A stretch of 64,000 bases of DNA from Candidatus Poseidoniaceae archaeon (GCA_964228815.1 CAXRAL010000083.1:5665-69664); one strand, 5' to 3'. Positions 9,992 to 53,054 are shown, counted from the stretch's first letter. Translations and numbers: made by a program. Notes: a model not told the origin generated them from the sequence alone.

Positions 9992-12900
9992 TTAGGGATG
10001 CTTCACAATGTCGCCATTGGCATCCTTGTACCACCACTCGTTGGTGGCTTTGTCATGGTACCACCAGTAGCCATCCGACCCCATCACCCAATCGGTTTCG
10101 ACCTCGTTGCCGTTCGTCGATTCGGTTGATGCGGTGACCGTTGCGGCGGCAACTTGAACGGTGTTGTCGGGTGTGAAATCATCGTCGTCATCGTCGTCGT
10201 CATCGTCCTCAAACTCAGAGGAATATTCGTCCCAGTCAAATTCAGACCGTGCGCCTTGGTTCACCGTCATGCGGCGCATCCATGCCAACAACGACACCAC
10301 GACGGCGACCAGCAGCAGGCCGGTCAGGCTCCCGATGATGGGGTTCACATCGCCGAAGACCTTCTCGGAGAAGGTGGGTTCCTCAGCGACGCGGACCTCG
10401 ATGGTGGGACCGCTAACGACCATGCCGTTGTCGAGGGTTGCCTCGACCCATTGGATGCCCGCTGTTTCTGGCTGCCAGTCGACGGCCACCAGGCCCAAGG
10501 CCCCGGCCTCGGCGCTGACGTCCGTGCGTTGAATGAGCGTGCGTTCGCCTTCGGCCGTCACCGTTTCGAAGGACACACCGGTTTGACCCTGGAGGCTCCC
10601 AATGTTCTCCACCTCGAGTTGAATCGAGGTGGTATCGCCTTCCTCCATGAGGAGGCGGGAGTAGGTGAGGGCGGATGGCGCCACCGTAAACTTGGGTTGG
10701 AGCCACTCCATGTTCCACGTCGCCAGGAAGGGGTCGTTGAGGTCCCCGCCCAGGCCGGTGACGGTGTTTCCGGCAAGGTCTCGACCAGCGATGCTAATCT
10801 TCACTTCCATCCGGTCGATCAGCATCGCATTGGTGATTTCGCTCAGGTTCATGTCACCGTAGAGTTCGAGGCGGAGTCCATCAATCGCTTCGCCTTCCAG
10901 CGTCAAGGGTTCCCGTCCGGACCGAATGACATCACCGGTTTCAAAGTCTTCCACCTGCCAAACCAATTCAAGCGAATCCACGTCAAGACCGCCCAGTTCC
11001 TGCACGACCAGGCGAACTTCGTGGTTCTCACCACCCAAGACAGCACGTGGGCGAGGCGAGAGCACCTCTTGGGGTTCAGGCCCGGTGCCGTCAACGACGA
11101 TCCATTTGACCGAGGTGGATTGGTCGGTCAGGTCAACACCCTGCCCTTCAAGGCAGCCCACTTCCCATGTCATGGGCAAGGAACCGGAGGAGGCAGGTGC
11201 ATCAATGGCCGTGGACCAAATGCCGTCCTTGGCCTCGACAGCGTGCGTTTGTCCGGCAAACAGAATGTTCACGGTGCAGTCAAAGGCTGGAACAGTCGAC
11301 GTTTCTGCAAAGACAAGCCCACCTGAAAGTTCCATCGGCGTAAGTGGCGTGACCCGAGCGCCATCACCGAGGAAGGAACCTCGGGTTAGGTGCAGGTTGA
11401 CGCTTTCCTCGGGAATGCTCAGTCCCGCAGAGAAGCGCCAGCGGTGTTCAGGGAAATTTCGCATCTCCTCTTGGCCGGCACGGTCCACCACCAAGATGGC
11501 AGGTTCTCGACGGTTATCCCCCAAATCGGGTGTGTTCCAACCCAGTTGGAGGTGGATGTTCAGCACCAGGTCCTTCTCGTAGGGATCGGCAACGCCGTTG
11601 GCCCCCAACATGGTGCACTGGTCGATGATGATGTGGGTGGAGGTGGTGGTGCACTCACCGGTCTCAAACGCCCACTGGATGCTCATGGCGTCGCTGCCCT
11701 GGTTGCTCGCCAGCATCACCTCGACGGTGGACAAATCCGAGCCACCGTTGGGCTCGGAAATCTTCACGTTCAGTTCGTAAGGCTGGGCTGGATGGAGCCA
11801 AGACTGGCGACCGTCAGCCCACGCAAAGGCGTCCGGTTCGAGTTCAGGCGCCCCGTCAACGGCGAGCTGGTACATGAACAACTGCTCGCCTTCCTCGGCG
11901 CTCCCGCCGTCTTGGAGTGCGTAGCCTGAGGGGTCGGTGCCTTCGAGGTACACGGCCACCTTCTGACCGAGGCTGCCACCGGTATCGTCCAACATGAGGG
12001 TGTAGACGCCCGTAAGCGCGGTCTGGTCGCTGGGCACCAACATTGGAACGGCATGATACTCTCCTTCGTCGGGCCAGCCATTGAGGTTCGTGTCGTCGAC
12101 CCATTCCTTCCAAACCATGGCGGTCATGGCGCTCGGCAGAACGGGTTGGTCAGCGATGGTCGCTTGCATCACCTGCGTTGGGCTTGGCGTGCGATGGTCG
12201 TAGCGGTACATCGAGGTCTCCATCACCCGAGGCTTCACCGAATCAACCGTGAAGGTGCGACTGAGCGAGGTCGGCTCAATAACGGTCGAGCCGTTGAACG
12301 ACACCAGACCGACCTCCCAGGTGACATCGCCGTAGGTGAACGGAATGGTCTCCGTGAAGTTCCAAAACGCGCCGTCCAAGGAGGTCGTGTTGCGCACCGC
12401 CGTGCCGTCCCGGTAAAGGGTGAGTTCGGCGTCGCCGTCCACAAATCCACGAGCATCGTTGACGTTTTCGTAGCCAACGCGAACGGAGACGTTCATCGAT
12501 TCACCGCCCCGGAGGTAGAGACGAGACGGGCTCATGTCAACGCCGTTTTCCGAAAAGACGACGCCCTTGATTTCAAGGTCGTTCTCGTAGCCTTGAAGCC
12601 CCGTGCCACCCCACGTGTGAGCAAACGGAATGGAGATCACCCCGCTCTGCATCACCAACCGCGAGGTGGCGGTGAGTTGCTGCTCATCGTCCCACGTTGG
12701 TCGGAGTCGGAACGTGATGTTCGTCACCACGTTGGTGCCGTCTTCGGTGATGTCGATGGGGTCGGTTGGATGGAGTTCTACGAGGGAAGCATCGCCCAGG
12801 CCGGCGGGGGCACCACCGGCATCGGGGAACAGGAAGGTGGCTTGGTTCGTTTTGCTGTACACGTCGAGTCGATGATGCGTGATGGACCCACCAATGACCT

Positions 12901-15139: not shown

Positions 15140-15264
15140 TTTCTGAGACACGGGTTGTTTGAGGGACGCCGCCACGAAATCGAAAGAGGCGATGAGGCCA
15201 CGAGTGCGAAAAAATGAACAAAATTTGGAGGAGCGTTCAAAACAGGAACCTCGGTGGGTGAAAC

Positions 15265-18552: not shown

Positions 18553-18561
18553 GGCCTCAAT

Positions 18562-19314: not shown

Positions 19315-19379
19315 ACCGGGCAACATGCACCTTGAATCCGAAGCGACGGCTTCAAATCACGCCCAAGCGAGGGCTCAGC

Positions 19380-22778: not shown

Positions 22779-22911
22779 CGTTTGTCAAGGGCTTAAGAGG
22801 ATGACGCCGGGGGTGGGGGAGGAAAGCCGTTTGAGTGAGGGTGAAACTGAACCCGTCTATTGAGAATCTACAGAGAACGTTCGTGTCGGATTTGGTGGTC
22901 GGAGAAGCAAC

Positions 22912-23181: not shown

Positions 23182-23183
23182 GC

Positions 23184-24989: not shown

Positions 24990-25038
24990 GAGACAGGGGG
25001 GTTGTTGGCTTGCTTTGAACCAATCGGAGAGGTGCGTA

Positions 25039-25517: not shown

Positions 25518-28091
25518 ATGGCCCGCCGCCTCATCATCGCTGTTCTTCTTGTTGCCATGTTTCTGGGCCAAACCACCAGCACGGTGATGTCCTTCGACCA
25601 AACCACGGTCAACGAGGTCAATGCCAGAAGTTCGGACGTCCGAATCAGTGAGATTCTGGTCTCAGCCTCCTCCGAACAATACAACGGCACCGATTGGAAC
25701 AACGACGGCGACATCGGCTCTTCTTCCGACCAATTCATCGAGTTGTGGAATGCAGGCACCGACCCCGTGGATGTCTCGGACTGGCTCTTGGATGACGTGG
25801 CTGAAGGTGGCTCCGCGCCGTGCCGACTGGCATGGAACACGACCATTGCGCCAAACGACTACATCGTCATCTTCCGAGCCAGTTCCAGAATTGAGTTGGA
25901 TTATTGGGACGGCGACACCGCTACCATCGCCGACGCCTCCGGCAACGTAGTTGACACACTGTCATACGGAGCTGAAGACTCGTGGTGGGACACGTCCTAC
26001 GTCAAAGCCCTCAACGGCACCATCACGAAAGTCAACCCCCCCACCCCCGGCTGGGGCGACGATGCGAGTTATCCGGTCGCTCAGAACATGGTTCGCTGCT
26101 ATGGTTTGAACGACAACGTGCACGAAGGCGCCTACGTTCTGAAAGGGCGCATCGTCCCCATGACCGGCGAAGCCGACGTCATCAACGAGGGACACGTATT
26201 GGTCAAGGACGGCATGATCGAAGCTGTCTGGGAAAACCAAGTCCCATCCGACATCCAATTAACGAACGTTCCCGTCATTGAGACCAACGGCACCATCTAC
26301 CCCGGGATGCTTGACCTCCACAACCACCTGCACTACAACCAGGCCCCGCTCTGGGACATGACCCCCCACCTCCCTGAAAACAACCGCAACGCTTGGGGTG
26401 GCTACAACAATCGCTACGAATGGAAGAACCATCCAGACTACAGCGAGCAGGTTACGAAGCCAAAGATGCTGGTTCACTCCGGACCGTACTGGAACATGGA
26501 ATCTGAAGCCATGAAGTACATCGAGATGAAATCCATCGTCGGTGGTGCGACGGCAGCCCAAGGCGGCCCGAGCAACCCCGATGACAGCTACGCAACCGTC
26601 CTCTCACGAAACATCGAGGACTACAACTTCGGCAGGGACGAAATCCACACCAAGGTCACGGAGTTGACCTCCGATTACATCGGCAACCACATCAAAACCG
26701 GCAACGCCAGCGGTGAACTTGACGCTTGGTTCATCCACATCGCTGAAGGCGTTGACGAACGCAGCAGGGCGGAGTTTGACATCCTCGTACAGAACAACCT
26801 CTTGGTCGGTGAATTGGTGCTGATTCACGGCGTGGCCCTCACGGACCAAGAATTCACCAAGATGGCGGACGTGGGCGCGACGCTCGTTTGGTCGCCTCTT
26901 TCCAACCTCTTGCTCTACGGGCAGACCGCCGACATTGCAGCCGCCAAAGCAGCCGGCGTCCACATCACGCTCGCCCCGGACTGGGCCCCCTCAGGTTCCA
27001 AATCCCCTCTCCACGAACTGAAGGTGGCCGACCTCTGGGACGACGAAATGCTCGGCGACATCTTCACCGATTACGAACTGGTCGAGATGGTGACCAGCAG
27101 CGCCGCCCAAGCGACCAACTGGGACGTTGAAGTCGGTACCATCGAAGCCGGCAAGGTCGCCGATCTGGTGGTCGTTGACAACATCGATGCCAATCCTTAC
27201 CGGAACCTCATCAACGCCGTGGACCCCGATGTTCGCTTGACCGTGGTCGGTGGCTTGGCCGTGTACGGCGACCAAGACATCATGACGGCCCTGAAGGGTG
27301 ACGACACCGAACCGGCCGGTAAATTCGGCAAAGCCGTTGACGTCACGTACTTGGCGGCGCCCGAAGGCGCACAAACATGGGCGAGCATCGTCGAAAACCT
27401 GACCATGGCCATGCGGTTTGACACCGAGGAAATGAGAGCGGCCTTCGGCGACGCCAACGACTTTGACAGCGTCACCCGAGACATGGGTTACGTCGGACTT
27501 GACCCGTGGTACACCTACGGCGATGAGCGGTACTTCAACGTCCTGAACGGCTCCTCGACGGCCAACTACCAGTGGGACATGTCCTTGCTGTACGACCGCT
27601 ATTACGACCGAGAAGAAACCCTTCCAGTCATCACCGAATTCGAAGTGGTTGAAGTGGAAGAACCCGAACCCTGCGAAGACGGAAGCGTACCACCGTGCAC
27701 CGTCGATGAACCTGACAACGGACCGGACGATTCCACCAATCAGACGACCGACGGTACGGGGGCCAACGACGGCACCGGTACCACAGACACCGGCAACAAC
27801 GGCGACAACGGACAAACCACCGTCCCCGTCGACACATCGCAAGCCGAGGATGACGATGTTGAGCAGCAAGCCCTGCTGCTGTTCTTTGTCATCGTTGTCC
27901 TGTTGCTCGTCGGCCTGTACGTCGTGTCAAGAGGCGGGGAAGACGCCCTGGCAGCCGAGGTTCAGATTGAGAAAATGTGGGACGAACAGGAAGAAGCGGC
28001 CGAGGCTGCGGCGATTGATGACGCACCGAGCTCCACCGGCTTCGTGCCTGCGCTCCCACCGTTGGAAGTTCCCTCGGACGAGACGGAGTGA
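25518..28091 (+). CDS. membrane-anchored extracellular amidohydrolase-superfamily enzyme with N-terminal lamin-tail (LTD) domain
   Basis: The ORF is 25464-28091. ATG 25518 gives the signal MARRLIIAVLLVAMFLGQTTS. The LTD pattern is VRISEILVSASS...DQFIELWNAGTDPVDVSDWLLDD. The metal-binding HxH is GMLDLHNHLHYN. The C-terminal TM span ALLLFFVIVVLLLVGLYVV is followed by a 54-aa tail. Confidence 0.75.
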   Translation: MARRLIIAVLLVAMFLGQTTSTVMSFDQTTVNEVNARSSDVRISEILVSASSEQYNGTDWNNDGDIGSSSDQFIELWNAGTDPVDVSDWLLDDVAEGGSAPCRLAWNTTIAPNDYIVIFRASSRIELDYWDGDTATIADASGNVVDTLSYGAEDSWWDTSYVKALNGTITKVNPPTPGWGDDASYPVAQNMVRCYGLNDNVHEGAYVLKGRIVPMTGEADVINEGHVLVKDGMIEAVWENQVPSDIQLTNVPVIETNGTIYPGMLDLHNHLHYNQAPLWDMTPHLPENNRNAWGGYNNRYEWKNHPDYSEQVTKPKMLVHSGPYWNMESEAMKYIEMKSIVGGATAAQGGPSNPDDSYATVLSRNIEDYNFGRDEIHTKVTELTSDYIGNHIKTGNASGELDAWFIHIAEGVDERSRAEFDILVQNNLLVGELVLIHGVALTDQEFTKMADVGATLVWSPLSNLLLYGQTADIAAAKAAGVHITLAPDWAPSGSKSPLHELKVADLWDDEMLGDIFTDYELVEMVTSSAAQATNWDVEVGTIEAGKVADLVVVDNIDANPYRNLINAVDPDVRLTVVGGLAVYGDQDIMTALKGDDTEPAGKFGKAVDVTYLAAPEGAQTWASIVENLTMAMRFDTEEMRAAFGDANDFDSVTRDMGYVGLDPWYTYGDERYFNVLNGSSTANYQWDMSLLYDRYYDREETLPVITEFEVVEVEEPEPCEDGSVPPCTVDEPDNGPDDSTNQTTDGTGANDGTGTTDTGNNGDNGQTTVPVDTSQAEDDDVEQQALLLFFVIVVLLLVGLYVVSRGGEDALAAEVQIEKMWDEQEEAAEAAAIDDAPSSTGFVPALPPLEVPSDETE

Positions 28092-36516: not shown

Positions 36517-36538
36517 CTAAAGGGCATTCGGCCTTTAT

Positions 36539-37153: not shown

Positions 37154-37188
37154 GGCTTACAGCCCGTAGGGCTGGGAGAGAAGGCTTG

Positions 37189-40100: not shown

Positions 40101-40710
40101 GCTCGATGCCCTGACCGATATCAATGACCTGACCGTGGCTTGGGACATCGATGTCACGGTGGACAGCAACGAAGACGGGATTCCAGACAACGACGCCGAC
40201 CTCCTCGGAAAGACGGTCTCGTACATCTTCAAGCAGGACGGCGTGCAATCGGTCAAGGTGATCGCTTGGGACGAGGATCCTGAGCGCCCCGGAACGAAAG
40301 TGGTGACATTTGCCGTGCTTCCGGCCGACCGAACCCCGCTGGAGAACCTCGGAGCGTCCTTGATCGGGGAAGAAGCCAACCCCATCGCTCAGCTCAGTCT
40401 TTTGGTGTTGATGTTGTTGCTCGTGGGTCTGTTTTCACGGCGGCGACGGCAACCTGAGGCCACCACCGATGCATGGGATGAGGTCAACACGTCGCTGAGC
40501 GCCGACCTGTTCACCTCCCAAGAAGAGCGAATTCAACAACGACGGCCTGAAGGGCCGCCACCGGCCTATCTCTTCCAACAGGCTTTGGAGCAGGCACCGG
40601 GAACGGAAACCCATGCGGGACCACCCCTACCCGCGACCGGCCTTCCGGAAGGTTGGACTTTGGAGCAATGGGAACACTACGGCCAACAGTACCTTGATTC
40701 ACAGGGCTGA
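37189..40710 (+). CDS. giant type-I surface protein GP2 (unknown N-domain, CARDB-like, ~5 PKD-like modules, one TM, 91-aa cytoplasmic tail)
   Basis: The ORF starts at TTG 37186, with an ATG at 37189. Signal-like LPVALVLLLLASLLP. PKD-like hallmarks: INASGSFDEDGGDVSCEF, LEVTDSEGAS, YHVTDDDGATTSEVLEVLVLNTPP. CARDB-like IEVSIKNRGITTSV. TM span LSLLVLMLLLVGLF followed by SRRRRQ. Confidence 0.8.
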   Translation: MASVLRPITMGEGRWHRTLPVALVLLLLASLLPIQHQVLPEPSVNHTVAGDPGVSDVPTWRIGDRWIYSGTFDPTILVTDTGVDATVGEIQGDTTSEVTGITTQNVDNMSVVAYTLRTSANFDKSGVSLEGYTGNVYIQFTQTEYLRVSDLAPIRSDLDLYIRFVPSGISFLEQILGDITITTTYSPVNENYDFPLRMDERWTTTTTSSSQWSGQSDYITPFPPPETDTNTTTWVVSDVGKPQNMIGQSIDYGGCNESYEMTSFNSEGISEGFRWYCPEVRNYAWLHTNDDIGLTIDFKLKRYDPVGATGVEPYTNPGSRADCLEVVPERSITALNSPMQVWVNASSSCFSNVAGLQLDLHHEAEGFLTTLTTAANGSAWTELNVGDAVDSSATVLDYASHGLVAKAGNRVGAATVTLDEYLVGLDVFAEVDAVNMLRTRCIGDVCTTTPLNAISGFNVLPGDYMDIEVSIKNRGITTSVATDAQLTLPDGTVTTDQLPALATYQAHKMFGFWEVPANTSIGTVELLWEADVSRLNTADADVQNNLGRIELFVGRLPTPVASEPTGLTDDTIHINASGSFDEDGGDVSCEFWVPFDDGTRTWDYERIASPSCMLNYTWIDDGVYPVEITVEDEERDEAVMILNVTVENRAPKIEVRSQRTEAKVEYPITLYAYANDSDSEKVWPGVVDIYWPGANCKEGYYTRVCTTTSTTEGWKTFTAVGTDDDRATATATFDVKFTNIRPHSINVQMVDDDGPVVMDAQDTWHVSEDQTVTIKGQAQDSVDDIEDLTHTWWPDDAQPSLIRVFDGRTSEFEMVWLEAGLHKMRLEVTDSEGASSGIEERWVSVQNVPPTIEPIASVLPVAEGQTISVSGSSSDTPSDIDTLVRCWDIDPSMDSDDIGSADDDCDVIGDDLTIAWNRSGTHKLVYHVTDDDGATTSEVLEVLVLNTPPIVRTGAISCVAYEACVLDASSTLDALTDINDLTVAWDIDVTVDSNEDGIPDNDADLLGKTVSYIFKQDGVQSVKVIAWDEDPERPGTKVVTFAVLPADRTPLENLGASLIGEEANPIAQLSLLVLMLLLVGLFSRRRRQPEATTDAWDEVNTSLSADLFTSQEERIQQRRPEGPPPAYLFQQALEQAPGTETHAGPPLPATGLPEGWTLEQWEHYGQQYLDSQG

Positions 40711-40733
40711 GCCATCGCAAAAAGGACATCCTC

Positions 40734-40741
40734 TTTTGTAT
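40734..40741 (+). promoter_or_regulatory. TATA-like box TTTTGTAT upstream of GP3; leaderless geometry
   Basis: CCTCTTTTGTATCA (40730-40743) nearly duplicates the bcp upstream box. The box centre is about 25 nt before the ATG at 40762. The T-run could also serve as a weak terminator for GP2. Confidence 0.4.
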
Positions 40742-40761
40742 CAGGAGGCACACCTCCGTTC

Positions 40762-43700: not shown

Positions 43701-44364
43701 ATGGGACAGTTCTCACCTTGACGCCGACCTCGATGGTAGTAAGACCGGTGATGTTGACTTCACCGGCGGCACCTGGACCATCACCGACCTCCCTGCGGGG
43801 AGTTGGACGGTCGTGCTGACGGCGACCGATGACGACGGCGAACAAGTGCAAAAAGAACTGACCATCGTGGTCGCTGAACTTCCTGCCGACGGGCTCATCG
43901 AAAGCATCACCAGCGCCGTGGGCACCACCACGGCGGCCATCATCGGTGTGCTCGGCATCATCATCGTCGGTTTGGTGGTCTTCCTGTTGTTTACTCGGCA
44001 GCGTCCGCCTGCCGATGATTTCAGCATGTTCGAACAAAGCCAGTTTGCCGCTGCGCCCAAGGACGTTGCCACGCTCCCTGCACAGCCTGCTGCCGCCGCT
44101 CCAACACAGGCTGTAACTGCCCCGATGGAACCGCAACCCGCCGCCACTGCCCCCGTTGAGCCGACGCTGGTGAACGCCGGCCCACCGCTTCCTGTCGCAG
44201 GATTACCGCAAGGTTGGACCATGGAACAATGGAACTACTACGGCGAACAGTGGCTCGCAGCGAATCAACCCGCTCCTGCCCCCGTTCAACCCATAGTTTC
44301 ACAAACTCCACCAACCCCTGCATCGGCTGAGTTGCAATCGTTGCTTGACGATTTGGACTTTTGA
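40762..44364 (+). CDS. giant type-I surface protein GP3, paralogue of GP2 (same N-domain, CARDB-like, PKD-like modules, one TM, 123-aa cytoplasmic tail)
   Basis: Signal MFGRACQAAFLVALFLTSMGLGVV. It is collinear with GP2 (VPNYRIGDEWVYETKFD vs VPTWRIGDRWIYSGTFD; FLEQTLGIVTFDNTYTPAKERYDFPLRNGDQW vs FLEQILGDITITTTYSPVNENYDFPLRMDERW; GFNWYCPAVRG vs GFRWYCPEVRN). PKD-like LNATGSFDIDGGDVDCEF and VTVTDDDGATAQQSMNVSVLNLPP. TM span AAIIGVLGIIIVGLVVFLLF followed by TRQR. Confidence 0.8.
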   Translation: MFGRACQAAFLVALFLTSMGLGVVESSIHFEQTVEERRSQGVSGAVDVPNYRIGDEWVYETKFDVSQLLAQANVSASLNALTGDTVNEVTDIFYATDNNGDTVLAYEVEISGSFTSGNSGATLEGVTGRLNIDYDGIDILRARDLATITSDFTLDVRFRPFNLGFLEQTLGIVTFDNTYTPAKERYDFPLRNGDQWWMEFEAKTEVSGTSDYFDPTEFDSQEDENNSWQVIKNEDPVEDGASPSYTGCDDSYKIAEWNATGVNLGFNWYCPAVRGSVWNRIVNPAGFTIDWILKTYSPADSNSVVPASSPGGRNTQITVSTATTATLPDAIEQVSIGYSVAGSPSIPIKNTNLQLRYEIAGTILNPTTDNNGQAQVSLNVSDEVDDTPASDDHTSNGVVVYDPAARVVGATTIVQDLSVVGVDLIAQAGSVIVERTRNGDTTTLSASIGYNALPGDVLSFSLPAQNRGVLTAPATVMEIETPDNTVLREAVPAVAPYAEERVLVNWSVPSNMMVGTAAMTFTVDPDQNVTADANRSNNDASISIFIGRAPTAAMTVDEGKYTFENVTLNATGSFDIDGGDVDCEFQIQDRPGEAYERIEAPGCWTQWNWSNSGTWSVKVLVVDEELDTDELVVDVVVLNRAPAFNLTHPEAVEVETPITIEAVDIEDIDTSSPSGQQVTITWPGLECNEGVTQPTCTFTPMFEGPINITAVATDDDGDTTTIFSELMVLNIPPTISAPTLTKGGQEVQPDENGTWHINEDEVGVLKATASDSENDEGTVIVQWYPSLADENWTITSIGVSSQELVAWNTSGEHIVQVRAIDADGAASEVLQATVMVHNVPPSVEGLPGNTPVFEDDALNLSVTASDTTSDLETLTICWDLDAKVDSDNDGIIDNDCELTGPSVAPSWSTKGVRMITVTVTDDDGATAQQSMNVSVLNLPPREYLNAQVAFTNLTEGENLTLNGADFIFDSATDSESLGFQWDSSHLDADLDGSKTGDVDFTGGTWTITDLPAGSWTVVLTATDDDGEQVQKELTIVVAELPADGLIESITSAVGTTTAAIIGVLGIIIVGLVVFLLFTRQRPPADDFSMFEQSQFAAAPKDVATLPAQPAAAAPTQAVTAPMEPQPAATAPVEPTLVNAGPPLPVAGLPQGWTMEQWNYYGEQWLAANQPAPAPVQPIVSQTPPTPASAELQSLLDDLDF

Positions 44365-44373
44365 GGCAGCACC

Positions 44374-44964
44374 ATGGGAAGTTTGTGGCAATTCTTTGGA
44401 CTTCCCGATCCAGAAGGCAATACCAACGCCCCTCCCCGTGCTGCACCTCCGTCGAATGCACCTGTGTCCCTCTCCTCCGGCCCGGAAGGCGATTCAGAGA
44501 CACGGTCTGCACCGGAGCCATCACCAACGACCACGGTAACACCCTCACCGTTGAGCGAGGCCGACATTGACCTCAGCCAACTGAGAACACCACCGCTGGG
44601 ATGGACCGGGCCGATGACGCCCGACGGGGAGGCCTTTCACGACCTCGGCATGGAAGTTCAACGCCAACGACCACTGCCCGACAAAGCGCTCCGCTACATT
44701 GCGCCCGACGTGATGAAGCGCATCCCGACCGGACCCATGCTTGAACGGGTTATGCAAGGCGATACCGCCATCGTTGACCTCCGTCCACTGGTCCACATGG
44801 AAAGCCATCAGATGGCCTGCAGACGTGAGATCAAGCACATGGCTGACCAAGCCCGTGTCAGTGTCTTTTCCCTGGACGCCGAAGACAAGCTGCTCATGGT
44901 CCCGGGCCACAACGTCGTGGTGGACATGCAAAAGCACGAACTCGGGCTGACCCCGCTGCTTTGA
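44374..44964 (+). CDS. sepF: SepF-like cell-division protein (N-terminal amphipathic membrane-targeting helix, ~100-aa Pro-rich linker, C-terminal SepF/DUF552-like core)
   Basis: MGSLWQFFGL resembles the SepF membrane-targeting N-terminus. The core GDTAIVDLRPLVHMESHQMACRREIKHMADQARVSVFSLDAEDKLLMVPGHNVVVD aligns by eye with archaeal/bacterial SepF (G..vI.Di..l.......i..L......v.G.i.......llvtP..v.i). GAGG lies 7 nt upstream of the ATG, and the gap to the GP3 stop is 9 nt. Confidence 0.6.
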   Translation: MGSLWQFFGLPDPEGNTNAPPRAAPPSNAPVSLSSGPEGDSETRSAPEPSPTTTVTPSPLSEADIDLSQLRTPPLGWTGPMTPDGEAFHDLGMEVQRQRPLPDKALRYIAPDVMKRIPTGPMLERVMQGDTAIVDLRPLVHMESHQMACRREIKHMADQARVSVFSLDAEDKLLMVPGHNVVVDMQKHELGLTPLL

Positions 44965-44965
44965 A

Positions 44966-45532: not shown

Positions 45533-45600
45533 AACGCCAACATCGCACCTCGGGCTTTGGAGATTGCCATGAATGGCGTGGGTGATATTGAAGAATCACG

Positions 45601-46344: not shown

Positions 46345-46346
46345 AA

Positions 46347-48170: not shown

Positions 48171-48179
48171 GATGAAGCC

Positions 48180-51100
48180 TCACAGATCGAAGGTTTCGCC
48201 ACATACAGGGCACGACATCCGCTTGAGCATCAAATCCTTCACGGCAAAGGTCGCCTGACAGGAGGGACAGGTCACGTCCCGCTTCAGGTCCGGAAGGGGC
48301 AGTGCCGGCGTGGGCAGCGGGGCCGATGGGTCGAGTGGAGGCAAGTTGGCCATGGGAAGGGGTGGAAGGGCGCCGGGAAGAGGTGGAAGGCCTTGTTGCA
48401 GGGCAGCCGCCATCTCGGACATCTCTCGCTGTTGTTTTCGCTTCATGCGCCGCTCAAGTCGAGCGTTGCCTTCGCCGTCCTCGAGTTTCTTCTCCAGTTC
48501 GGCCGAAAGGGTCGCCTCCTCATCGTCCATCACCGCCACAGGAGCCTGAATCGTGAGTTCCTCCTCCTCGTCTTCCACGGTCAACAACGGGCCAACATCG
48601 GTTTCAGGTGAAATCATGATTTCAACGATTTCACCTTCTTCGTCGGCCATCTCTTCGAGTAACTCCTCCACTTCGTTTCGAGACCGACGCACGACCACGG
48701 CGATGGAAATGAGGAAGATGACCAAGACGCTGAGACCGAGACCGAGGATACGCAGCTTCCCTTCCCTGGAATCACCGGGAAGATAGTCCAAGAGCGTCTC
48801 AAGGGTGCTCGGTGATGACCCGACGTTGTTCGATGCTTCGGTGGAGACGACGTTGCTCAACGTCATCAGCCCACTGGGCGTGATGGAGCAGAGGATGGTA
48901 TCGTCTTCCATGACACCGATGCCGAAGAGGAAGCCTTGGTCGATCATGTTCGACAACCCGTTGATGGGCTCACCTTCGGCGTTGGTGATGAGCCCCAGCC
49001 GGTGGACAGGACCGTTCAGGTTGATTTCATCGTGATAGAGGTAGAGGCCTTCGCTGCGCTGCGCCAAGGCCACATGGGTGGCACCGGGAGCCAGCGATTG
49101 CTGCTGGTTGCCCGACCACACCGAATTGGTGTTGGAAACGACGACGTTGGACACCTTGCCTTGACCTTCAATCCAAGCGCCAACCACACGGTCTTCCCCG
49201 TTTTCAACCATCACCTCGAGCACAGGTGAGGAAGCCTCGTCGCCCACCGAGTACTGGAAACTCCAGGAAGGGACGGTGTGAGAGCCATGGGTGTACATGA
49301 GACCGACACGCTCGATGCCCGAAACATCGTCCCGGTATTCTTGGTAGAGCAAGTGGAGGTATTCGTCGCCCAAACCGACGCCCAGGGGCTGCGTATCTCC
49401 GGGCCGGATGTCGAGGTCGGAGAGCACCGTGATGGGACTTGACCATGATGTTCCTTTGTCAGGAGAGGTGGATGAAATAACGAACAGCGAAGTGACGTCT
49501 TGCCAGGACCCTCCCGTCGAAAGATCTCGATGGTAACCCGCAAGCACCATGGTGTCGTCGTGTTGGTCGAAGGCGAAACTGTAGTAGGAACCCTCCGAAA
49601 GTTTGAGCGCCGGCATGTGGTAGTGCTTCGGCGTGGTTTTGCCTCCGGATGAAATTGATGTCATGGCGATGTCGGTGAGAATGTAGCCCTCAACGCTCAG
49701 GGAACGACGGGTCCACGCGACCTGGACCAACCCGTCATCTCGCTGGTAAGCGGCCAGTTCACCGCCCCAATTCTCTTCCAGCACCACGCCGCCGACCATC
49801 ACAAGTCTGGAGGTGATGGTGCGTGCGTGAAGTTCTCCATTGATGGTAGTAAACAGGAGCCCTCCGTCGTTGAGGCCGATGAAATCGACCGGTACTTCGC
49901 CGGTCGCCAAATCAATGCCGACACGGGAACCTTCCCGAAGGTCTGCAACGGTGACGTTGAACAGGAGTTCGTTGTGTTCCAACTCCACCCCCGAACCGCT
50001 CAAGACCGCACGATACGAGACCGACCCCACCTCATCGTGGACGTCTTCGAATTGGGCATAGGCGTAGCCGGACGTGGTGCTTGAGCCCGGCACGAGGTTG
50101 AGCGATTGGTCCTTGAGGCGCTGCCACCCAATGTCCTCGATCAACCGTTCCAGACCGAGGTTGAGGTTGCTCGCATCCGTTTGACCGAGGTTGTCGACGC
50201 GGATTTTGATGCTGTAGGGTGCATCTGGAACCGGTACATCCGGCGTGGTGCGAGAGGCACCTGGAAGGAATCGAAGCATGGGTTCCACCGGCCGTTCATC
50301 AACCGTGAAACTGAACGTGTACGTGTTGTCGCTTCGGTCGGGGTCTTCGTAGAGTTGGGTCGGATCAAGGGAAAGGGTCACGTCGTGCGTGCCCGGTTCG
50401 GTCGCCCACCAGTACAGCGTGACCTGAGCGCTTTCCCCTTGTTCAAGGGACGTGACCTTTCCTTCGGAGGGGTAGGTGGTTGAATCGCTCCCTTCGCCTT
50501 CCAGCGTCAGGTACACCTCATTGGCGTCCAAGTCGCCAATGTTTCGCAGCCCAAATCGCACCTCAAGGACGGTTCCTGCCACGGCGTTGTTAACAGGGAG
50601 GCCGCCATCGTAGACACCAACGGTTCCGGTAAATGCAAAGTTTGGAGCCGCCGGCAAATTGTCCACCTCGTACGTCCGTTTGACTGCGTCACTGACCACG
50701 CCGCTGGCGTTCACCATGCGGACGCTGATGCGGTGAGAACCGTCGCTTACCTGCGTTGAATCCCATGTGAACGACCAGTCTTGGACGCCTTCTTCTTGCT
50801 CGGTGAGTTGGTCGCCGAGTTGCCAGTCATCACCGTCGATCTTGTATTCCACTCGATCGTGATCGAGGCCTTCAACGGTGCCTGAAAACGAAACGGATCC
50901 AACGAGCGCCGTCCCAAGTGGAGGCTCGCTGATGGACACCGTCATGCGGGCGAAGCGAACGATGCGAATGTCGATGACGGAGGCTTCGCCAGCCTCGTTG
51001 AGCGCACGGGCGTAGACGAGCGTGTACGACTCGTCGGGATCGACCCAGTCATCATCAACGGTGATGTCGAAGTACCAGTCCTCCACCGTGCCGTCAGTGC

Positions 51101-53054
51101 TCAACCAGTTGGTGAGTTCGTCGCTGTCGCCGTCGTCATAGAACTGTTCAAACTTGACTTGGACCTCGATGTAGTCGTTTTCGCTGGTATCGGTGGTCCC
51201 TTCAACAGAGAGCGTATTGCCGGCAAGGTGCAACGATTGGTTCACTGGCGCCGTCATGGACACGTCTTCACCAAGGCCGTCACCACCGGGGGGCGGGTCA
51301 ATGATGATGCCGCCGTTGTCTTCCAGCGGTGTACAGGAGCGGTCCAGTACCCTGTCAAGGGCGCACGACGCATCGACCAATCCAAAGCCCCACTTCTCGT
51401 TCCATCGGTTGGAGATGTCCGGCTCGGTCGCCGAACCGCGGGCTTCTGAAGAGTTGCGGAGAATGTTCCGGATCTCTTCCGGCGTGAGCGAATCGTCGGC
51501 TTGCAAGAGGCTGGCAACGATACCGGAGACCAACGGCGTGGCCATGCTGGTCCCGTCTTTGGAGTCGTAGCTGTTGTCGGCGAGTGGGCGTTCGGGTTGG
51601 CCGGGGAAAGAGGGCCCAGTGGCCGCCGTGGCCGAGGTGATGCCCGAACCGTACGAGGTCAAATCGGGCTTGAGTTCATCCCATTCGTCGTCGTCGCCGT
51701 CGTCCAATCGAGGACCCCAGTTGGAGTAGGAGGCCATCACGTCGTCGGTCCGGTTGACGGTGTTTCGGTCGTTGACGGCACCGATGGAAATAGCACCGTC
51801 AGCGCTGGCGGGCGAGGGGACGCGCTTTGTTCCGTCGTTACCCATAGCGACCACACAGACGATACCGGCGTCTCGGGCGTCGTTAACCAATCGTGCCTCT
51901 GCCCCTGAGCCGTTGTCGCCTTCGTCATCGGGGTTGAGGGGGCTGCTCAAGGAACCAAAGGACATGGAGGCAACGTCAATGCCTCGGCTGGATTCATTGT
52001 TGCCCCAGTCGGTGTCTTTGTTGTTGATCATCCATTGAATGCCGTTCAGCGAAGCTTGTGAATTGGTCCCACCAGAATCGGTCAAGACCTTGATGTCGAC
52101 AAGGTAGGCCCCCATCCCGCTGCCGGTGTGCACCCGCTCGGCTCCACCCGTTCCCAAGGCGGTGGCAGCGACGTGCGTGCCGTGGCCCTGCCCGTCGTCG
52201 GGGTCAACCGTACCGTCCGGGTTGGAGGCGCTTGAGGTGGCGTCATACCCTGCGACCCACTTCTGGTCGCTGTAGCTGGTGGGGTCGCTATCAGGTTCGT
52301 CATCCACATCGTCAAAGTCGTTGAGCGCCCTGTGTTCGTTGTCAACACCGGTATCGAGCACCGCAATCACGACGCCTTCGCCGTTGTAGCCTCGAGCATA
52401 AGTGCTCGCCGAGTACACGTCCGATGGCATGGCACGGGCAGCCTCGGAGGCCACGCCGTTGAACGGCACCATGACGTTCTGCATCTCGACGACAACGACA
52501 CCTGGAAGGTGATAGATGTCCATCAAGGCGCTGACAGGGACCTTGTCCACGACCACTGAATCGATGGAATTCATGACCTGGAACCATGCACCATTGTCCT
52601 CACCCAGCCAGCCATGACTGTCAAGAACCGAGGTCAGGGCTTGGAGTTCACCCTCGTTGGGGGCCCAAGCATAGTCGACGACGATGGCGACGGTCTTGCG
52701 TCCGTCCGAGCCGATAACAGCGGTCGGTGAAATGGATTCTTCACCTGCCAGAACGCGCTGCAGCCGGTCATCCATGCCGTTCCAATCCAAGTCGGGACCG
52801 TAGCCAAGCCACCACATGTCGGGCTCGCTCGATGCACGGCCGCCCCGCTCAATCATGCGAGTTGGGCGTTCACACAGGTCTTCGCCGCACATCAACGGGG
52901 GAAGACCTTCCACCAAAATGGGCGCTTCATGGTCCGCCACTTCCGTAGCGGCAACCGGGTTGCTCAGAAGGCCGCCGCTGACATCGGCCAGCAGCACCAG
53001 CAGAGCGAAGAGAAGGGCGCAGGTTCGCATGGCCGACCGTGGTGCAGTATGCAT
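48180..53054 (-). CDS. giant membrane-anchored subtilisin-like serine protease (S8) with CARDB-like and BNR/propeller-like modules, one TM, 169-aa cytoplasmic tail ending in a zinc ribbon
   Basis: Catalytic triad contexts VIAVLDTGVD (Asp), GHGTHVAATALG (His), DGTSMATPLVSGIVASL (Ser). CARDB-like LEVRFGLRNIGDLDANEV. Asp-box SSTSPDKGTSWSSP. TM span LGLGLSVLVIFLISIAVVV followed by RRSR. The tail has LPPLP repeats and CPSC-x15-CPVC. ATG 53030 is an alternative start. Confidence 0.85.
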   Translation of the reverse strand: MHTAPRSAMRTCALLFALLVLLADVSGGLLSNPVAATEVADHEAPILVEGLPPLMCGEDLCERPTRMIERGGRASSEPDMWWLGYGPDLDWNGMDDRLQRVLAGEESISPTAVIGSDGRKTVAIVVDYAWAPNEGELQALTSVLDSHGWLGEDNGAWFQVMNSIDSVVVDKVPVSALMDIYHLPGVVVVEMQNVMVPFNGVASEAARAMPSDVYSASTYARGYNGEGVVIAVLDTGVDNEHRALNDFDDVDDEPDSDPTSYSDQKWVAGYDATSSASNPDGTVDPDDGQGHGTHVAATALGTGGAERVHTGSGMGAYLVDIKVLTDSGGTNSQASLNGIQWMINNKDTDWGNNESSRGIDVASMSFGSLSSPLNPDDEGDNGSGAEARLVNDARDAGIVCVVAMGNDGTKRVPSPASADGAISIGAVNDRNTVNRTDDVMASYSNWGPRLDDGDDDEWDELKPDLTSYGSGITSATAATGPSFPGQPERPLADNSYDSKDGTSMATPLVSGIVASLLQADDSLTPEEIRNILRNSSEARGSATEPDISNRWNEKWGFGLVDASCALDRVLDRSCTPLEDNGGIIIDPPPGGDGLGEDVSMTAPVNQSLHLAGNTLSVEGTTDTSENDYIEVQVKFEQFYDDGDSDELTNWLSTDGTVEDWYFDITVDDDWVDPDESYTLVYARALNEAGEASVIDIRIVRFARMTVSISEPPLGTALVGSVSFSGTVEGLDHDRVEYKIDGDDWQLGDQLTEQEEGVQDWSFTWDSTQVSDGSHRISVRMVNASGVVSDAVKRTYEVDNLPAAPNFAFTGTVGVYDGGLPVNNAVAGTVLEVRFGLRNIGDLDANEVYLTLEGEGSDSTTYPSEGKVTSLEQGESAQVTLYWWATEPGTHDVTLSLDPTQLYEDPDRSDNTYTFSFTVDERPVEPMLRFLPGASRTTPDVPVPDAPYSIKIRVDNLGQTDASNLNLGLERLIEDIGWQRLKDQSLNLVPGSSTTSGYAYAQFEDVHDEVGSVSYRAVLSGSGVELEHNELLFNVTVADLREGSRVGIDLATGEVPVDFIGLNDGGLLFTTINGELHARTITSRLVMVGGVVLEENWGGELAAYQRDDGLVQVAWTRRSLSVEGYILTDIAMTSISSGGKTTPKHYHMPALKLSEGSYYSFAFDQHDDTMVLAGYHRDLSTGGSWQDVTSLFVISSTSPDKGTSWSSPITVLSDLDIRPGDTQPLGVGLGDEYLHLLYQEYRDDVSGIERVGLMYTHGSHTVPSWSFQYSVGDEASSPVLEVMVENGEDRVVGAWIEGQGKVSNVVVSNTNSVWSGNQQQSLAPGATHVALAQRSEGLYLYHDEINLNGPVHRLGLITNAEGEPINGLSNMIDQGFLFGIGVMEDDTILCSITPSGLMTLSNVVSTEASNNVGSSPSTLETLLDYLPGDSREGKLRILGLGLSVLVIFLISIAVVVRRSRNEVEELLEEMADEEGEIVEIMISPETDVGPLLTVEDEEEELTIQAPVAVMDDEEATLSAELEKKLEDGEGNARLERRMKRKQQREMSEMAAALQQGLPPLPGALPPLPMANLPPLDPSAPLPTPALPLPDLKRDVTCPSCQATFAVKDLMLKRMSCPVCGETFDL

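What the first reader, a model, noticed from the sequence alone, without database searches (positions are those of the whole stretch)
9992..53054. One cytoplasmic-tail grammar shared by five otherwise unrelated giant type-I surface proteins
Each protein ends with a single hydrophobic span followed by a predicted cytoplasmic tail. The tails are built from the same ordered elements. (i) An Arg-rich stop-transfer: MRRM, SRGG, SRRRRQ, TRQR, RRSR. (ii) An acidic-aromatic box 13-20 residues after the membrane: FDWDEY in GP1, KMWDEQ in the amidohydrolase, DAWDEV in GP2, SMFEQS in GP3, and the acidic EELLEEMADEE in the subtilase. (iii) PPLP-type proline motifs: GPPLP in GP2 and GP3, ALPPLE in the amidohydrolase, and LPPLPGALPPLPMANLPPLDPSAPLPTPALPLPDL in the subtilase. 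GP2 also has PPAY, and none was seen in GP1. (iv) A small terminal module: a W-rich 26-mer in GP2 and GP3, a CxxC-x15-CxxC ribbon in the subtilase, and an aromatic WWY hairpin-like repeat in GP1. No terminal module was seen in the amidohydrolase. Tail coordinates are 9995-10279(-), 27927-28088(+), 40435-40707(+), 43993-44361(+) and 48183-48689(-). The ectodomains are unrelated (MAM-like/Ig-like; LTD+amidohydrolase; PKD/CARDB; S8 protease+BNR). So, except for GP2/GP3, gene duplication does not explain the similarity. It reads like a common cytoplasmic docking or sorting code for surface proteins. I know of no described archaeal system that reads such tails.
Basis: partly seen in the sequence, partly recalled or inferred. 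Interest (0 to 1): 0.78.

Follow-up and report, generated by a model that had tools for sequence, protein, structure and literature searches.

The report
Shared cytoplasmic tail modules in archaea
Giant surface proteins of abundant ocean archaea (Marine Group II) end inside the cell in conserved tails built from a few small modules, one of them an undescribed tryptophan-rich mini-domain carried by at least four unrelated protein families. This points to an unknown internal docking or clustering system, but the five tails in this window do not share one common code.

Summary
The window comes from a Poseidonia species (Marine Group II archaea). All five tails are at the stated coordinates. The positive-inside rule places them in the cytoplasm. 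GP1, GP2, GP3 and the subtilase tails are conserved in orthologues across the family, so these are functional; the amidohydrolase evidence is thin.

They are not one grammar. Profile comparison links only GP2 and GP3. GP1, the subtilase and the amidohydrolase match nothing else. The shared WDE box is marginal (P about 0.04 after correcting for motif choice).

Four tails share a layout: basic stop-transfer, acidic stretch, low-complexity linker, then a folded module of about 30 residues at the C-terminus. The amidohydrolase has no terminal module.

Two module types have spread between unrelated ectodomains:
- **W-rich module** (GP2/GP3), GPPLPxxGLPxGWTMEQWxxYGxQWL. It occurs in 652 protein clusters, after a single membrane span and at or near the C-terminus, on at least four ectodomain superfamilies. 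Selection acts on the protein, not the DNA. AlphaFold2 predicts an extended proline stretch followed by a helix, so GPPLP may belong to the fold rather than being a free ligand.
- **Proline repeats plus zinc ribbon** (subtilase). The same layout ends an unrelated 1250-residue Ig-like protein.

GP1 has its own near-invariant DWDEYSS box and a four-strand beta module.

No known family or paper covers these tails. They are probably docking or clustering handles; the partner is unknown.

The parts
9995..10279 (-). GP1 cytoplasmic tail (95 aa): MRRM stop-transfer, W-acidic box, poly-Asp run, Ala/Thr/Ser linker, terminal beta module.
   Evidence: Translation. Conserved in 101 distinct orthologue tails down to 43% whole-protein identity.
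10280..10351 (-). GP1 single C-terminal membrane span (about 24 aa).
   Evidence: Hydropathy scan; flanks.
10217..10240 (-). GP1 W-acidic box FDWDEYSS. Family consensus is [YF][DE]WDEYS.
   Evidence: Nearly invariant across the orthologue tails, reading YEWDEYSD at 43% identity, with a few single-residue variants such as GWDEY and DWNEY. A W-acidic box is present in 100% of members at a median of 14 residues after the span.
9995..10099 (-). GP1 terminal module ETDWVMGSDGYWWYHDKATNEWWYKDANGDIVKHP.
   Evidence: Eleven invariant columns. AlphaFold2 gives four short beta strands with pLDDT about 85 over the last 30 residues. The nearest structures are single beta-propeller blades, not significant (TMq 0.54, E 0.24); it is not a WW domain.
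27927..28088 (+). Amidohydrolase cytoplasmic tail (54 aa), with KMWDEQ at 27972-27989 and FVPALPPLE at 28041-28067.
   Evidence: Translation. The only two orthologue fragments read DKMWGDD...FVPAPPPPR...EEEE. Evidence for this tail is weak.
40435..40707 (+). GP2 cytoplasmic tail (91 aa), with DAWDEV at 40468-40485 and RRPEGPPPAYLFQQ at 40540-40581.
   Evidence: A Trp lies within the first 35 residues after the span in 89% of the 55 scored orthologue tails, typically about 11 residues after it, with variable flanks. R[RK]P..PP...F is also kept.
40606..40707 (+). GP2 copy of the W-rich terminal module (GPPLPATGLPEGWTLEQWEHYGQQYL).
43993..44361 (+). GP3 cytoplasmic tail (123 aa), with FSMFEQSQF at 44020-44046.
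   Evidence: Conserved in the 28 GP3-type tails aligned, 26 of them distinct orthologues.
44167..44268 (+). GP3 copy of the W-rich terminal module (GPPLPVAGLPQGWTMEQWNYYGEQWL).
   Evidence: - Seven invariant and six near-invariant columns of 29.
- 652 clusters at 50% identity match the profile at E <= 1e-3.
- Amino-acid conservation is 0.92-0.95 while synonymous-codon identity is at background, 0.59-0.61.
- AlphaFold2 pLDDT 86: an extended proline-rich stretch followed by a helix at residues 19-33.
44329..44361 (+). GP3 extreme C-terminus ELQSLLDDLDF.
   Evidence: LLDDLD[FLI] is kept in most GP3-type proteins and altered in the most distant ones, for example WDDLDL and LLGDLGL. The last 25 codons (44287-44361) also show raised synonymous-codon identity of 0.82-0.87.
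48183..48689 (-). Subtilase cytoplasmic tail (169 aa).
   Evidence: Sub-elements, conserved in most of 48 orthologues:
- VEIMISPETDVGPLL at 48582-48626.
- Basic helix GEGNARLERRMKRKQQRE at 48423-48476.
- LPPLP-type repeats at 48291-48392, whose copy number varies between orthologues.
48183..48275 (-). Subtilase terminal zinc ribbon, CPSC-x15-CPVC.
   Evidence: Pfam Zn_ribbon_4 at E 1.6e-5, 25.2 bits, below the 30.3 cut-off. TIGR02098 MJ0042_CXXC at E 0.0035. It is the only BLAST match (E 0.001) to the unrelated Ig-like protein L084:3171-6923, which ends the same way.
44374..44964 (+). SepF-like gene starting 10 nt after GP3. Context, not part of the tails.
   Evidence: N-terminal MGSLWQFFGLP, a long linker and a core of about 90 aa. 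Found downstream of the GP2/GP3 gene pair in 53 loci, and 10-12 nt after GP3 wherever a GP3-type gene was called. No Pfam hit. A PDB profile search ranks SepF-like 3ZIE third at E 0.53.

Best explanation
These single-pass (type I) surface proteins of Marine Group II archaea carry conserved cytoplasmic tails built to a common layout but from different parts.

The layout, seen in four of the five tails (the amidohydrolase has no terminal module):
1. Arg/Lys stop-transfer.
2. An acidic juxtamembrane stretch, centred on a conserved Trp in some families.
3. A low-complexity Pro/Ala-rich linker of variable length.
4. A folded mini-module of about 30 residues at the extreme C-terminus.

The modules come in several kinds:
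- **W-rich module** (GPPLPxxGLPxGWTMEQWxxYGxQWL), predicted as an extended proline stretch followed by a helix. It has been shuffled onto at least four unrelated ectodomain superfamilies, and GP2 and GP3 are two of its carriers.
- **Proline repeats plus an MJ0042-like zinc ribbon**, on the subtilase and on an unrelated Ig-like protein.
- **A four-strand beta module preceded by a near-invariant DWDEYSS box**, on GP1.

Shown: the anatomy, the inside topology by the positive-inside rule, protein-level purifying selection on the W-rich module, and module sharing across unrelated ectodomains.

Inferred: the modules are handles on the inner face of the membrane that bind one or a few cytoplasmic partners. 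Through these, the cell would position, retain or turn over its large envelope proteins. The partner is not identified.
For: **Organism and topology**
- The window matches Poseidonia/Poseidoniaceae genomes at up to 98% identity.
- Each protein has a signal-like N-terminus and one span.
- In 64 module-bearing proteins, K+R averages 2.28 in the 6 residues after the span against 0.64 in the 12 before it.

**Orthologue conservation**
- The GP2 (57 tails aligned) and GP3 (28 tails aligned) tails are conserved.
- The subtilase tail is conserved in 48 orthologues.
- The GP1 tail is conserved in 101 distinct orthologue tails.

**W-rich module**
- It is 19/27 identical between GP2 and GP3, against 34% overall.
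- Amino-acid conservation is 0.92-0.95 with synonymous-codon identity at background.
- 652 clusters match the profile.
- At least 548 matching stretches were confirmed in JGI metagenome contigs, and 79 of the 80 kept have a span upstream.
- The module lies 26-143 residues after the span and usually 7-13 residues from the C-terminus.
- Ectodomain groups GP2/3, P0273(+P0310), P0386 and P0385(+P0305) are mutually unrelated by BLAST and hhalign at <=14% probability. Their tails align at >=99.5% probability.
- AlphaFold2 gives pLDDT 86.

**Zinc-ribbon tail**
- The same basic, acidic, LPPxP-rich, CPxC...CPxC order occurs on the subtilase and on L084:3171-6923. The ribbon is their only similarity.

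**Novelty**
- No known family or paper was found.
- Every member that carries a name is called 'hypothetical protein' and assigned to Poseidoniales, Poseidoniaceae, Thalassarchaeaceae, Thermoplasmatota or Euryarchaeota.
Against: - No reader was found. Neighbourhoods of the different module-bearing families share no cytoplasmic gene: SepF-like/KaiC-like, LonB/GCD14, thermosome and MinD-like respectively.
- The five window tails do not share detectable profile similarity beyond GP2/GP3.
- The W box is not enriched by presence alone. Any Trp occurs in 47% of random 35-residue windows of these genomes.
- Other type I proteins in the same genomes have short tails without such modules, for example an S8 peptidase ending ...IDAEI[IV]E.
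- Topology rests on hydropathy and the positive-inside rule, not on a trained predictor or an experiment.
- AlphaFold2 models of 34-50 residues have no significant structural neighbours.
Confidence: 0.5

Rival explanations
1. Self-association handles. The terminal modules bind copies of themselves or each other rather than a separate reader. The candidates are a single propeller-like blade in GP1, zinc ribbons, and the W-rich mini-domain. Binding would cluster the giant proteins into a lateral array (an S-layer-like lattice or GP2-GP3 pairs) from the cytoplasmic side.
For: - The GP1 module superposes best on one blade of multi-blade beta-propellers, including the designed Pizza proteins, though the matches are not significant (E >= 0.24).
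- GP2 and GP3 are adjacent paralogues with the same module.
- P0384 is a small N-anchored protein with two W-rich modules and no ectodomain, which could act as a cross-linker.
- A soluble protein of three to four zinc ribbons lies next to a module-bearing gene (L088:4819-5289).
- No common partner gene was found.
Against: No oligomer prediction could be run. The conserved polar positions of the W-rich module helix (E17, Q18) would fit a heterologous interface equally well. The fold matches are not significant (E 0.24).
Confidence: 0.2
2. Membrane-interface or topogenic elements. The juxtamembrane acidic-Trp box and the Trp/Tyr-rich amphipathic helix sit at the inner leaflet. They would stabilise the single-span anchor of very large ectodomains, or fix its orientation during insertion, with no protein partner.
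For: - Trp and Tyr favour membrane interfaces (established knowledge).
- The conserved Trp lies 11-16 residues after the span in GP1, GP2, the amidohydrolase and two other families.
- The module helix has aromatic residues at positions 19, 22 and 26.
- Linker length varies freely (26-143 residues), as expected if only tethering matters.
Against: - AlphaFold2 models the proline stretch and the helix with high confidence (pLDDT 92-93 for residues 11-30), which may indicate a self-contained fold.
- Invariant Gly and Pro positions and conserved polar E17/Q18 are not needed for interface binding.
- A zinc ribbon and a beta module are not membrane-binding types.
- The module is the last part of the protein to be synthesised, so it cannot guide insertion of the ectodomain.
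Confidence: 0.15
3. Coincidence of composition. The shared 'grammar' of the five window tails is a reading artefact of acidic, proline-rich, disordered tails. Apart from the GP2/GP3 paralogy there is nothing common.
For: - Sharing some tripeptide among at least 3 of 5 shuffled tails happens in 78% of shuffles.
- WDE also occurs in IleRS and in ectodomains.
- hhalign finds no similarity among the GP1, subtilase and GP2/3 tails.
- An Arg-rich stop-transfer is universal.
Against: - This holds only for the five-way claim.
- Four of the five tails are strongly conserved in orthologues; the amidohydrolase evidence is thin.
- PPLP-type motifs exceed composition shuffles by far, 125 observed against 2.7 expected, although orthologues are not independent.
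- Two module types recur on unrelated ectodomains.
Confidence: 0.08

Closest known systems
C-terminal sorting tags of prokaryotic surface proteins: PGF-CTERM/archaeosortase A, GlyGly-CTERM/rhombosortase, LPXTG/sortase.
   Same: A short C-terminal cassette that includes a membrane span and a basic cluster. It is shared by many otherwise unrelated secreted or surface proteins of one lineage.
   Different: In those tags the signature motif lies on the outer side, just before the span, and the protein ends within a few residues of the basic cluster. The tag is then cleaved by a dedicated transpeptidase. Here there is no PGF or Gly-Gly motif before the span. The tails are 54-169 residues long. The conserved module lies 26-143 residues inside the cell.
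Short linear motifs in cytoplasmic tails of eukaryotic type I membrane proteins, for example the W-acidic motifs of calsyntenin-1 and SKIP (TNLEWDDSAI) read by the TPR domain of kinesin light chain (PMC6214655).
   Same: A Trp flanked by Asp/Glu in a disordered cytoplasmic segment. GP1 EFDWDEYSS is a close look-alike and is nearly invariant in its family.
   Different: A different domain of life, with no kinesin light chain. No TPR reader was identified here. The resemblance is of pattern only, and outside GP1 the flanks of the Trp are variable.
MJ0042-type zinc ribbon (Pfam Zn_ribbon_4/5, TIGR02098).
   Same: CPxC-x15-17-CPxC with the typical hydrophobic pattern. It is the best-scoring family for the subtilase ending.
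   Different: Scores are below the curated cut-offs. Here the ribbon is the last element of a cytoplasmic tail behind proline-rich repeats, on surface proteases and Ig-like proteins.
Mini-proteins in which a polyproline II stretch packs on a short helix (pancreatic-polypeptide fold, Trp-cage). This comparison is from my own knowledge.
   Same: In the AlphaFold2 model an extended Pro-rich segment (GPPLPxxGLP) precedes a short helix carrying conserved Trp and Tyr.
   Different: No sequence relation. Foldseek gives no match. The packing was not inspected at atomic level, so this is a structural analogy only.
FtsZ C-terminal peptide bound by archaeal SepF (M. smithii NEDQLDDFIDGIF, PMC8178401).
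   Same: The GP3 extreme C-terminus, SAELQSLLDDLDF, shares L-D-D-hydrophobic, a further Asp and a terminal Phe. The next gene is SepF-like.
   Different: The nearly invariant archaeal GID motif is absent. The SepF assignment of the neighbour is unproven. Part of the conservation of this stretch is at the DNA level.

Membership tests
Archaeosortase/rhombosortase-type C-terminal sorting signal (PGF-CTERM, GlyGly-CTERM) | Signature motif (PGF, or Gly-Gly) immediately N-terminal to the span. | tested here: not met
   The sequences before the spans are EKVFGD, EDDDVE, LIGEE, ADGLIE and REGKLR. None has such a motif.
Archaeosortase/rhombosortase-type C-terminal sorting signal (PGF-CTERM, GlyGly-CTERM) | The protein ends within a few residues of the basic cluster after the span. 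| tested here: not met
   The tails are 95, 54, 91, 123 and 169 residues long.
WW domain (for the GP1 module and the LPxGW start of the W-rich module) | Match to the WW profile and a three-stranded sheet with two signature Trp and a C-terminal Pro. | tested here: not met
   No WW hit even at E <= 10. The GP1 model has four strands, and its closest (non-significant) structural matches are propeller blades, not WW domains. The W-rich module is an extended stretch plus a helix.
MJ0042-type zinc ribbon (PF13717, TIGR02098) | Two CxxC knuckles about 15 residues apart, scoring above the family cut-off. | tested here: inconclusive
   CPSC-x15-CPVC is present and conserved. PF13717 scores 25.2 bits against a cut-off of 30.3. 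TIGR02098 scores 17 bits against 20.9.
W-acidic cargo motif (kinesin light chain ligands) | A Trp flanked by Asp/Glu in a disordered cytoplasmic segment. | tested here: met
   GP1 FDWDEYSS is nearly invariant in its family. In GP2 and the amidohydrolase only the Trp is well kept.
W-acidic cargo motif (kinesin light chain ligands) | Binding by a TPR-domain receptor. | not testable with these tools
   No complex prediction tool and no whole proteome were available.
SepF (for the gene after GP3) | N-terminal amphipathic helix, linker, and a C-terminal FtsZ-binding core that matches SepF profiles. | tested here: inconclusive
   The layout fits by reading. There is no Pfam or NCBIfam hit. In a PDB profile search, SepF-like 3ZIE ranks third at E 0.53.
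SepF-binding FtsZ C-terminal peptide (for the GP3 end) | Archaeal consensus centred on a nearly invariant GID motif, preceded by LDDF-like residues (PMC8178401). | tested here: not met
   GP3 ends in LLDDLDF. LDD-hydrophobic is present but GID is absent.
New family proposed here: MGII W-rich C-terminal tail module | GPP[LIV]PxxGLPxGW[TS]xEQWxx[YF]GxQ[WY]L, placed after a single membrane span and a linker, and within about 13 residues of the C-terminus or followed by a GP3-type extension. | tested here: met
   GP2 and GP3 meet it; GP1, the amidohydrolase and the subtilase do not.

The most novel reading that the evidence does not exclude
The tails are the inner half of an envelope-to-cytoskeleton coupling system in Marine Group II archaea.

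- The W-rich mini-domain would be a common handle read by one cytoplasmic scaffold.
- The GP3 terminal LLDDLDF peptide would mimic the FtsZ C-terminal peptide and dock on the co-operonic SepF-like membrane anchor.
- Giant surface proteins would then be positioned relative to the division site.
- GP1's W-acidic box and single beta blade, and the subtilase's proline repeats and zinc ribbon, would be further adaptors of the same network.

This would be an archaeal counterpart of eukaryotic receptor-tail sorting codes.
Probability: 0.1. Interest if true: 0.85.

Novelty: new variant of a known kind. Interest (0 to 1): 0.62.

Why it matters
Marine Group II archaea are among the most abundant archaea of the surface ocean. 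They are uncultured, and their envelope biology is unknown.

These results show that their largest surface proteins carry conserved, modular cytoplasmic tails. That gives concrete handles for study: a W-rich mini-domain of about 28 residues present in hundreds of protein clusters, a proline-repeat plus zinc-ribbon ending, and a W-acidic box plus beta module.

Shared tags on prokaryotic surface proteins are so far known on the outer side of the membrane, as sortase-type signals. A shared tag on the inner side would imply communication or anchoring between envelope proteins and cytoplasmic machinery in an archaeon. The peptides are short enough to be tested directly by synthesis, binding assays and complex prediction.

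The W-rich module is also a clean marker for annotating this class of proteins, which sources currently label 'hypothetical'.

Tried and rejected
1. **WW-domain reading** of the GP1 'WWY' repeat and of LPxGW. Rejected: no profile hit, a four-strand blade-like model, and a helix in the W-rich module.
2. **PPLP as one common ligand motif.** Doubtful. In GP2/GP3 it lies in the confidently modelled part of the module. In the amidohydrolase it is not conserved. Only the subtilase type has free repeats.
3. **Sortase-type sorting signal.** Rejected on motif and tail length.
4. **W-box enrichment by simple presence.** Not significant. Any Trp occurs in 47% of random 35-residue windows. Strict W-acidic occurs in 4.7% of windows, or 19% of acid-rich ones.
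5. **Database searches with short queries** returned only fragments of at most 81 residues, seemingly because of how the tool picks candidates for short queries. Several 'small proteins' on long contigs proved to be pieces of frameshifted large genes.
6. **Viral mimicry.** The only viral-contig matches are an internal WTxEQWxYY in low-GC proteins of about 850 residues with no membrane span and no GPPLP, so they are unrelated.
7. **Common neighbouring partner gene.** None was found. Only S8 proteases recur near two of the families.
8. **RNA structure** at the over-conserved 3' end of GP3: z = -1.6, not significant.
9. **SepF identity of the downstream gene** could not be confirmed by sequence.
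10. **MGII FtsZ** was not present in any fetched locus, so its C-terminus could not be compared with the GP3 end.
Full report
**1. What is there**

The window is from a Poseidonia species (Marine Group II archaea, family Poseidoniaceae). Orthologous loci in public MAGs reach 98% identity.

Each protein has an N-terminal hydrophobic, signal-like segment and exactly one further hydrophobic span near the C-terminus. Acidic residues precede that span and Arg/Lys follow it.

Pfam confirms LTD plus amidohydrolase, PKD/CARDB for GP2 and GP3, and S8 plus CARDB plus Big_7 for the subtilase. BNR was not seen. GP1 gives only a weak Reelin-subrepeat hit. These five are the only type I-like proteins in the window.

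**2. Are the tails conserved?**

Yes for four of the five; the amidohydrolase evidence is thin. Eighty GP3-centred loci from Poseidoniaceae genomes and 120 GP1 homologues were compared.

- **GP2** (57 tails aligned). A Trp lies within the first 35 residues in 89% of the 55 scored tails, typically about 11 residues after the span, with variable flanks. An R[RK]P..PP..[YF].F element and the terminal module are also kept.
- **GP3** (28 tails aligned). It keeps [FY]xMF[ED]QSQF, the module, and a C-terminal LLDDLD[FL].
- **Subtilase** (48 orthologues). Most keep VE[IL]MIxPExDxGPLL, the basic helix GEGNARLERRMKRKQQRE, a variable number of LPPLP-type repeats, and the CPxC-x15-CPxC ribbon.
- **GP1** (101 distinct tails, down to 43% identity). 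It keeps a nearly invariant [YF][DE]WDEYS box, an acidic run, and the terminal module. The linker between them drifts.
- **Amidohydrolase.** Only two orthologue fragments were available. They keep KMW plus acidic residues and a proline patch, but not LPPLE.

**3. Is it one grammar?**

No. With the membrane span removed, family profiles of the tails were compared with hhalign.

- GP2 and GP3 match at 99.6% probability through the terminal module.
- GP1 matches nothing (at most 0.9%).
- The subtilase matches nothing (at most 5%).
- The amidohydrolase reaches 35% with GP2, from a three-sequence alignment.

WDE in three of five tails looks striking in naive shuffles (P about 1e-4). However, some tripeptide is shared by at least three tails within the first 30 residues in 4% of composition-preserving shuffles, and in 78% for whole tails.

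WDE also occurs elsewhere. The cytoplasmic IleRS in the same window even carries ADAWDEV. Trp makes up 1.9% of residues in the ORFs called from these loci, and 47% of random 35-residue windows contain one.

The support for a juxtamembrane Trp box is conservation and position. It lies at a median of 11-16.5 residues after the span in GP1, GP2, the amidohydrolase and two further families. Enrichment does not support it. The GP3 and subtilase 'equivalents' have no Trp and are family-specific.

**4. The W-rich module is a mobile cytoplasmic mini-domain**

Between GP2 and GP3 it is 19/27 identical, against 34% overall. Across 74 distinct copies, 7 of 29 columns are invariant and 6 nearly so.

A profile search of 1.84 billion representatives found 652 clusters at E <= 1e-3 and 393 at <= 1e-10. 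In every representative long enough to judge, except one frameshifted protein and one N-anchored protein, a single span lies 26-143 residues upstream. The module usually ends 7-13 residues from the C-terminus, or is followed by a GP3-type extension.

An independent scan of JGI metagenome contigs confirmed at least 548 occurrences. Of the 80 loci kept, 79 have the span upstream.

The ectodomains fall into at least four superfamilies with no BLAST or profile-profile similarity (hhalign at most 14%):
- GP2/GP3.
- The P0273 group, which absorbs the P0310 fragments.
- The P0386 group.
- The P0385 group, to which the P0305 group is distantly related (90%).

The tails of these groups align at 99.5% or better. 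Two of the groups also share an upstream ANSMYGGxx[ED][IM]F[QE]QP motif that resembles PPxYLFQQ in GP2.

Every member that carries a name is called 'hypothetical protein' and assigned to Poseidoniales, Poseidoniaceae, Thalassarchaeaceae, Thermoplasmatota or Euryarchaeota.

Selection is on the protein. In the module, amino-acid conservation is 0.92-0.95, while synonymous-codon identity is at background (0.48-0.62).

AlphaFold2 on a 32-sequence alignment gives pLDDT 86, and 92-93 for residues 11-30. The model has an extended GPPLPxxGLPxGW stretch followed by a helix at residues 19-33. I read this as a polyproline stretch packing on an aromatic helix, as in the pancreatic-polypeptide fold or the Trp-cage. 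That is an analogy from my own knowledge. Foldseek finds nothing. If this reading is right, the GPPLP of GP2 and GP3 is part of the folded module, not a free PPLP ligand.

**5. A second shared ending**

A 1250-residue Ig-like protein (Ig_VWA7, NPCBM_assoc) sits next to a module-bearing gene in another MGII locus (L084:3171-6923). Its frameshifted orthologue is in L083.

Its tail runs: RSSRKKRK, an acidic stretch, LPPP/GLPMP/LLPPPLG, then CPSC-x17-CPSC. This is the same order as in the subtilase tail. The ribbon is the only similarity between the two proteins (BLAST E 0.001).

The subtilase ribbon scores best against the MJ0042-type Zn_ribbon_4 family, but below its cut-off.

Weaker observation: the amidohydrolase-type ending (a proline patch followed by an acidic C-terminus) also closes a 2021-residue protein in L088.

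**6. The GP1 module**

AlphaFold2 gives four short strands with pLDDT about 85. The nearest structures are single blades of beta-propellers, at TMq 0.54, rmsd 1.3 A and E 0.24, which is not significant. It is not a WW domain.

The box in front of it, EFDWDEYSS, is a close look-alike of eukaryotic W-acidic motifs such as SKIP TNLEWDDSAI. Those are read by the TPR domain of kinesin light chain (PMC6214655). This is a resemblance of pattern, not a membership.

**7. How it most likely works**

Shown:
- Single-pass proteins with inside tails by the positive-inside rule.
- A common layout in four of the five tails: basic, acidic, linker, terminal mini-module.
- At least two module types shuffled among unrelated ectodomains.
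- Protein-level purifying selection on the W-rich module.

Inferred: the modules are handles on the inner face of the membrane for one or a few cytoplasmic partners, which would position, retain or turn over envelope proteins.

The rivals are self-association into a lattice and membrane-interface anchoring.

No partner was identified. Neighbourhoods differ between families: SepF-like/KaiC-like, LonB/GCD14, thermosome, and MinD-like. The only recurring neighbour is an S8 protease.

**8. The SepF lead**

The gene 10 nt after GP3 has an amphipathic N-terminus (MGSLWQFFGLP), a long linker and a core of about 90 residues. It lies downstream of the GP2/GP3 gene pair in 53 loci, and 10-12 nt after GP3 wherever a GP3-type gene was called.

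It has no Pfam or NCBIfam hit. It matches the SepF-like structure 3ZIE only at E 0.53.

The GP3 end, SAELQSLLDDLDF, resembles the M. smithii FtsZ peptide NEDQLDDFIDGIF that binds SepF. It lacks the archaeal GID motif (PMC8178401).

The last 25 codons of GP3 also show raised synonymous-codon identity (0.82-0.87, against about 0.6). Part of that conservation therefore reflects a DNA- or RNA-level constraint just upstream of the next gene. No significant RNA structure was found there. I keep this only as the most novel reading.

**9. Comparison with what is known, and novelty**

The tails are not sortase-type sorting signals. There is no motif before the span, the tails are long, and the signature lies inside the cell.

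No Pfam or NCBIfam family covers the GP1, GP2, GP3 or amidohydrolase tails. No paper in the library mentions cytoplasmic tails in Poseidoniales.

I rate the finding a new variant of a known kind. Shared C-terminal tags on surface proteins, and modular receptor tails, are both known. A shared folded tag on the cytoplasmic side of archaeal surface proteins is not.

Noticed in passing
window 44287-44361: The last 25 codons of GP3 have synonymous-codon identity of 0.82-0.87, against about 0.6 elsewhere in the gene. This points to a DNA- or RNA-level constraint just upstream of the SepF-like gene, whose GAGG overlaps the GP3 stop codon. The RNA fold z-score is only -1.6.
   Followed up: partly
window 37186-54185: The gene order is GP2, GP3, SepF-like, Maf, KaiC-like ATPase, GlmS, subtilase, rhomboid. 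The subtilase lies within 10 kb of GP3 in 48 Poseidoniaceae loci, and the SepF-like gene is present in 53.
   Followed up: partly
window 53139-54185 (-): The rhomboid protease next to the subtilase has its own cytoplasmic C-terminal cysteine-rich ending (CPICEAPLGIVERSTGPHLQCSAITEH). A rhomboid in L053 ends similarly.
   Followed up: no
window 15265-18552 (+): The isoleucyl-tRNA synthetase contains ADAWDEV, almost the same heptapeptide as the GP2 'box' TDAWDEV. This is a caution against reading WDE as specific.
   Followed up: yes
P0384 (297 aa, from the representative search): A small protein with an N-terminal membrane anchor, no ectodomain, and two copies of the W-rich module in its cytoplasmic part. 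It is a possible adaptor or cross-linker.
   Followed up: no
L084:3171-6923 and L083:917-1798: An Ig-like protein of 1250 aa whose tail copies the subtilase layout (basic, acidic, LPPxP-rich, CPSC-x17-CPSC). It lies one gene away from a W-rich-module protein.
   Followed up: partly
L088:1-1090 and window 28041-28088: The amidohydrolase-type ending (a proline patch, then an acidic C-terminus such as ...PPPP..SEEE) also closes an unrelated 2021-aa protein. It may be a third shared ending, but the sample is only two families.
   Followed up: no
L088:4819-5289: A soluble 156-aa protein made of three to four CxxC...CxxC zinc ribbons lies about 2.7 kb upstream of a module-bearing gene, with one gene between them.
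   Followed up: no
L086:3423-5312 and about 20 loci among L100-L178: S8 peptidases of about 713 aa lie next to the P0273-family module protein. They have a short conserved tail, R[FLY]RSDxxIEG...IDAEI[IV]E. So S8 proteases neighbour module-bearing genes in two different loci types, and not every type I protein here has a long modular tail.
   Followed up: partly
tails of the P0273 and P0386 groups: A conserved ANSMYGG[AST]x[ED][IM]F[QE]QP motif sits 20-100 residues upstream of the W-rich module in two unrelated ectodomain families. A GPP[IV]S repeat replaces it in other tails.
   Followed up: partly
window 9992-15337 (-): The mechanical ORF for GP1 starts too early and overlaps the IleRS gene. 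Orthologues are about 1700 aa, which places the true start near 15090-15140.
   Followed up: partly
L082, L083: In polished long-read assemblies the large module-bearing genes are split by frameshifts into two or three called genes. This creates spurious 'small proteins' that carry only the module.
   Followed up: yes
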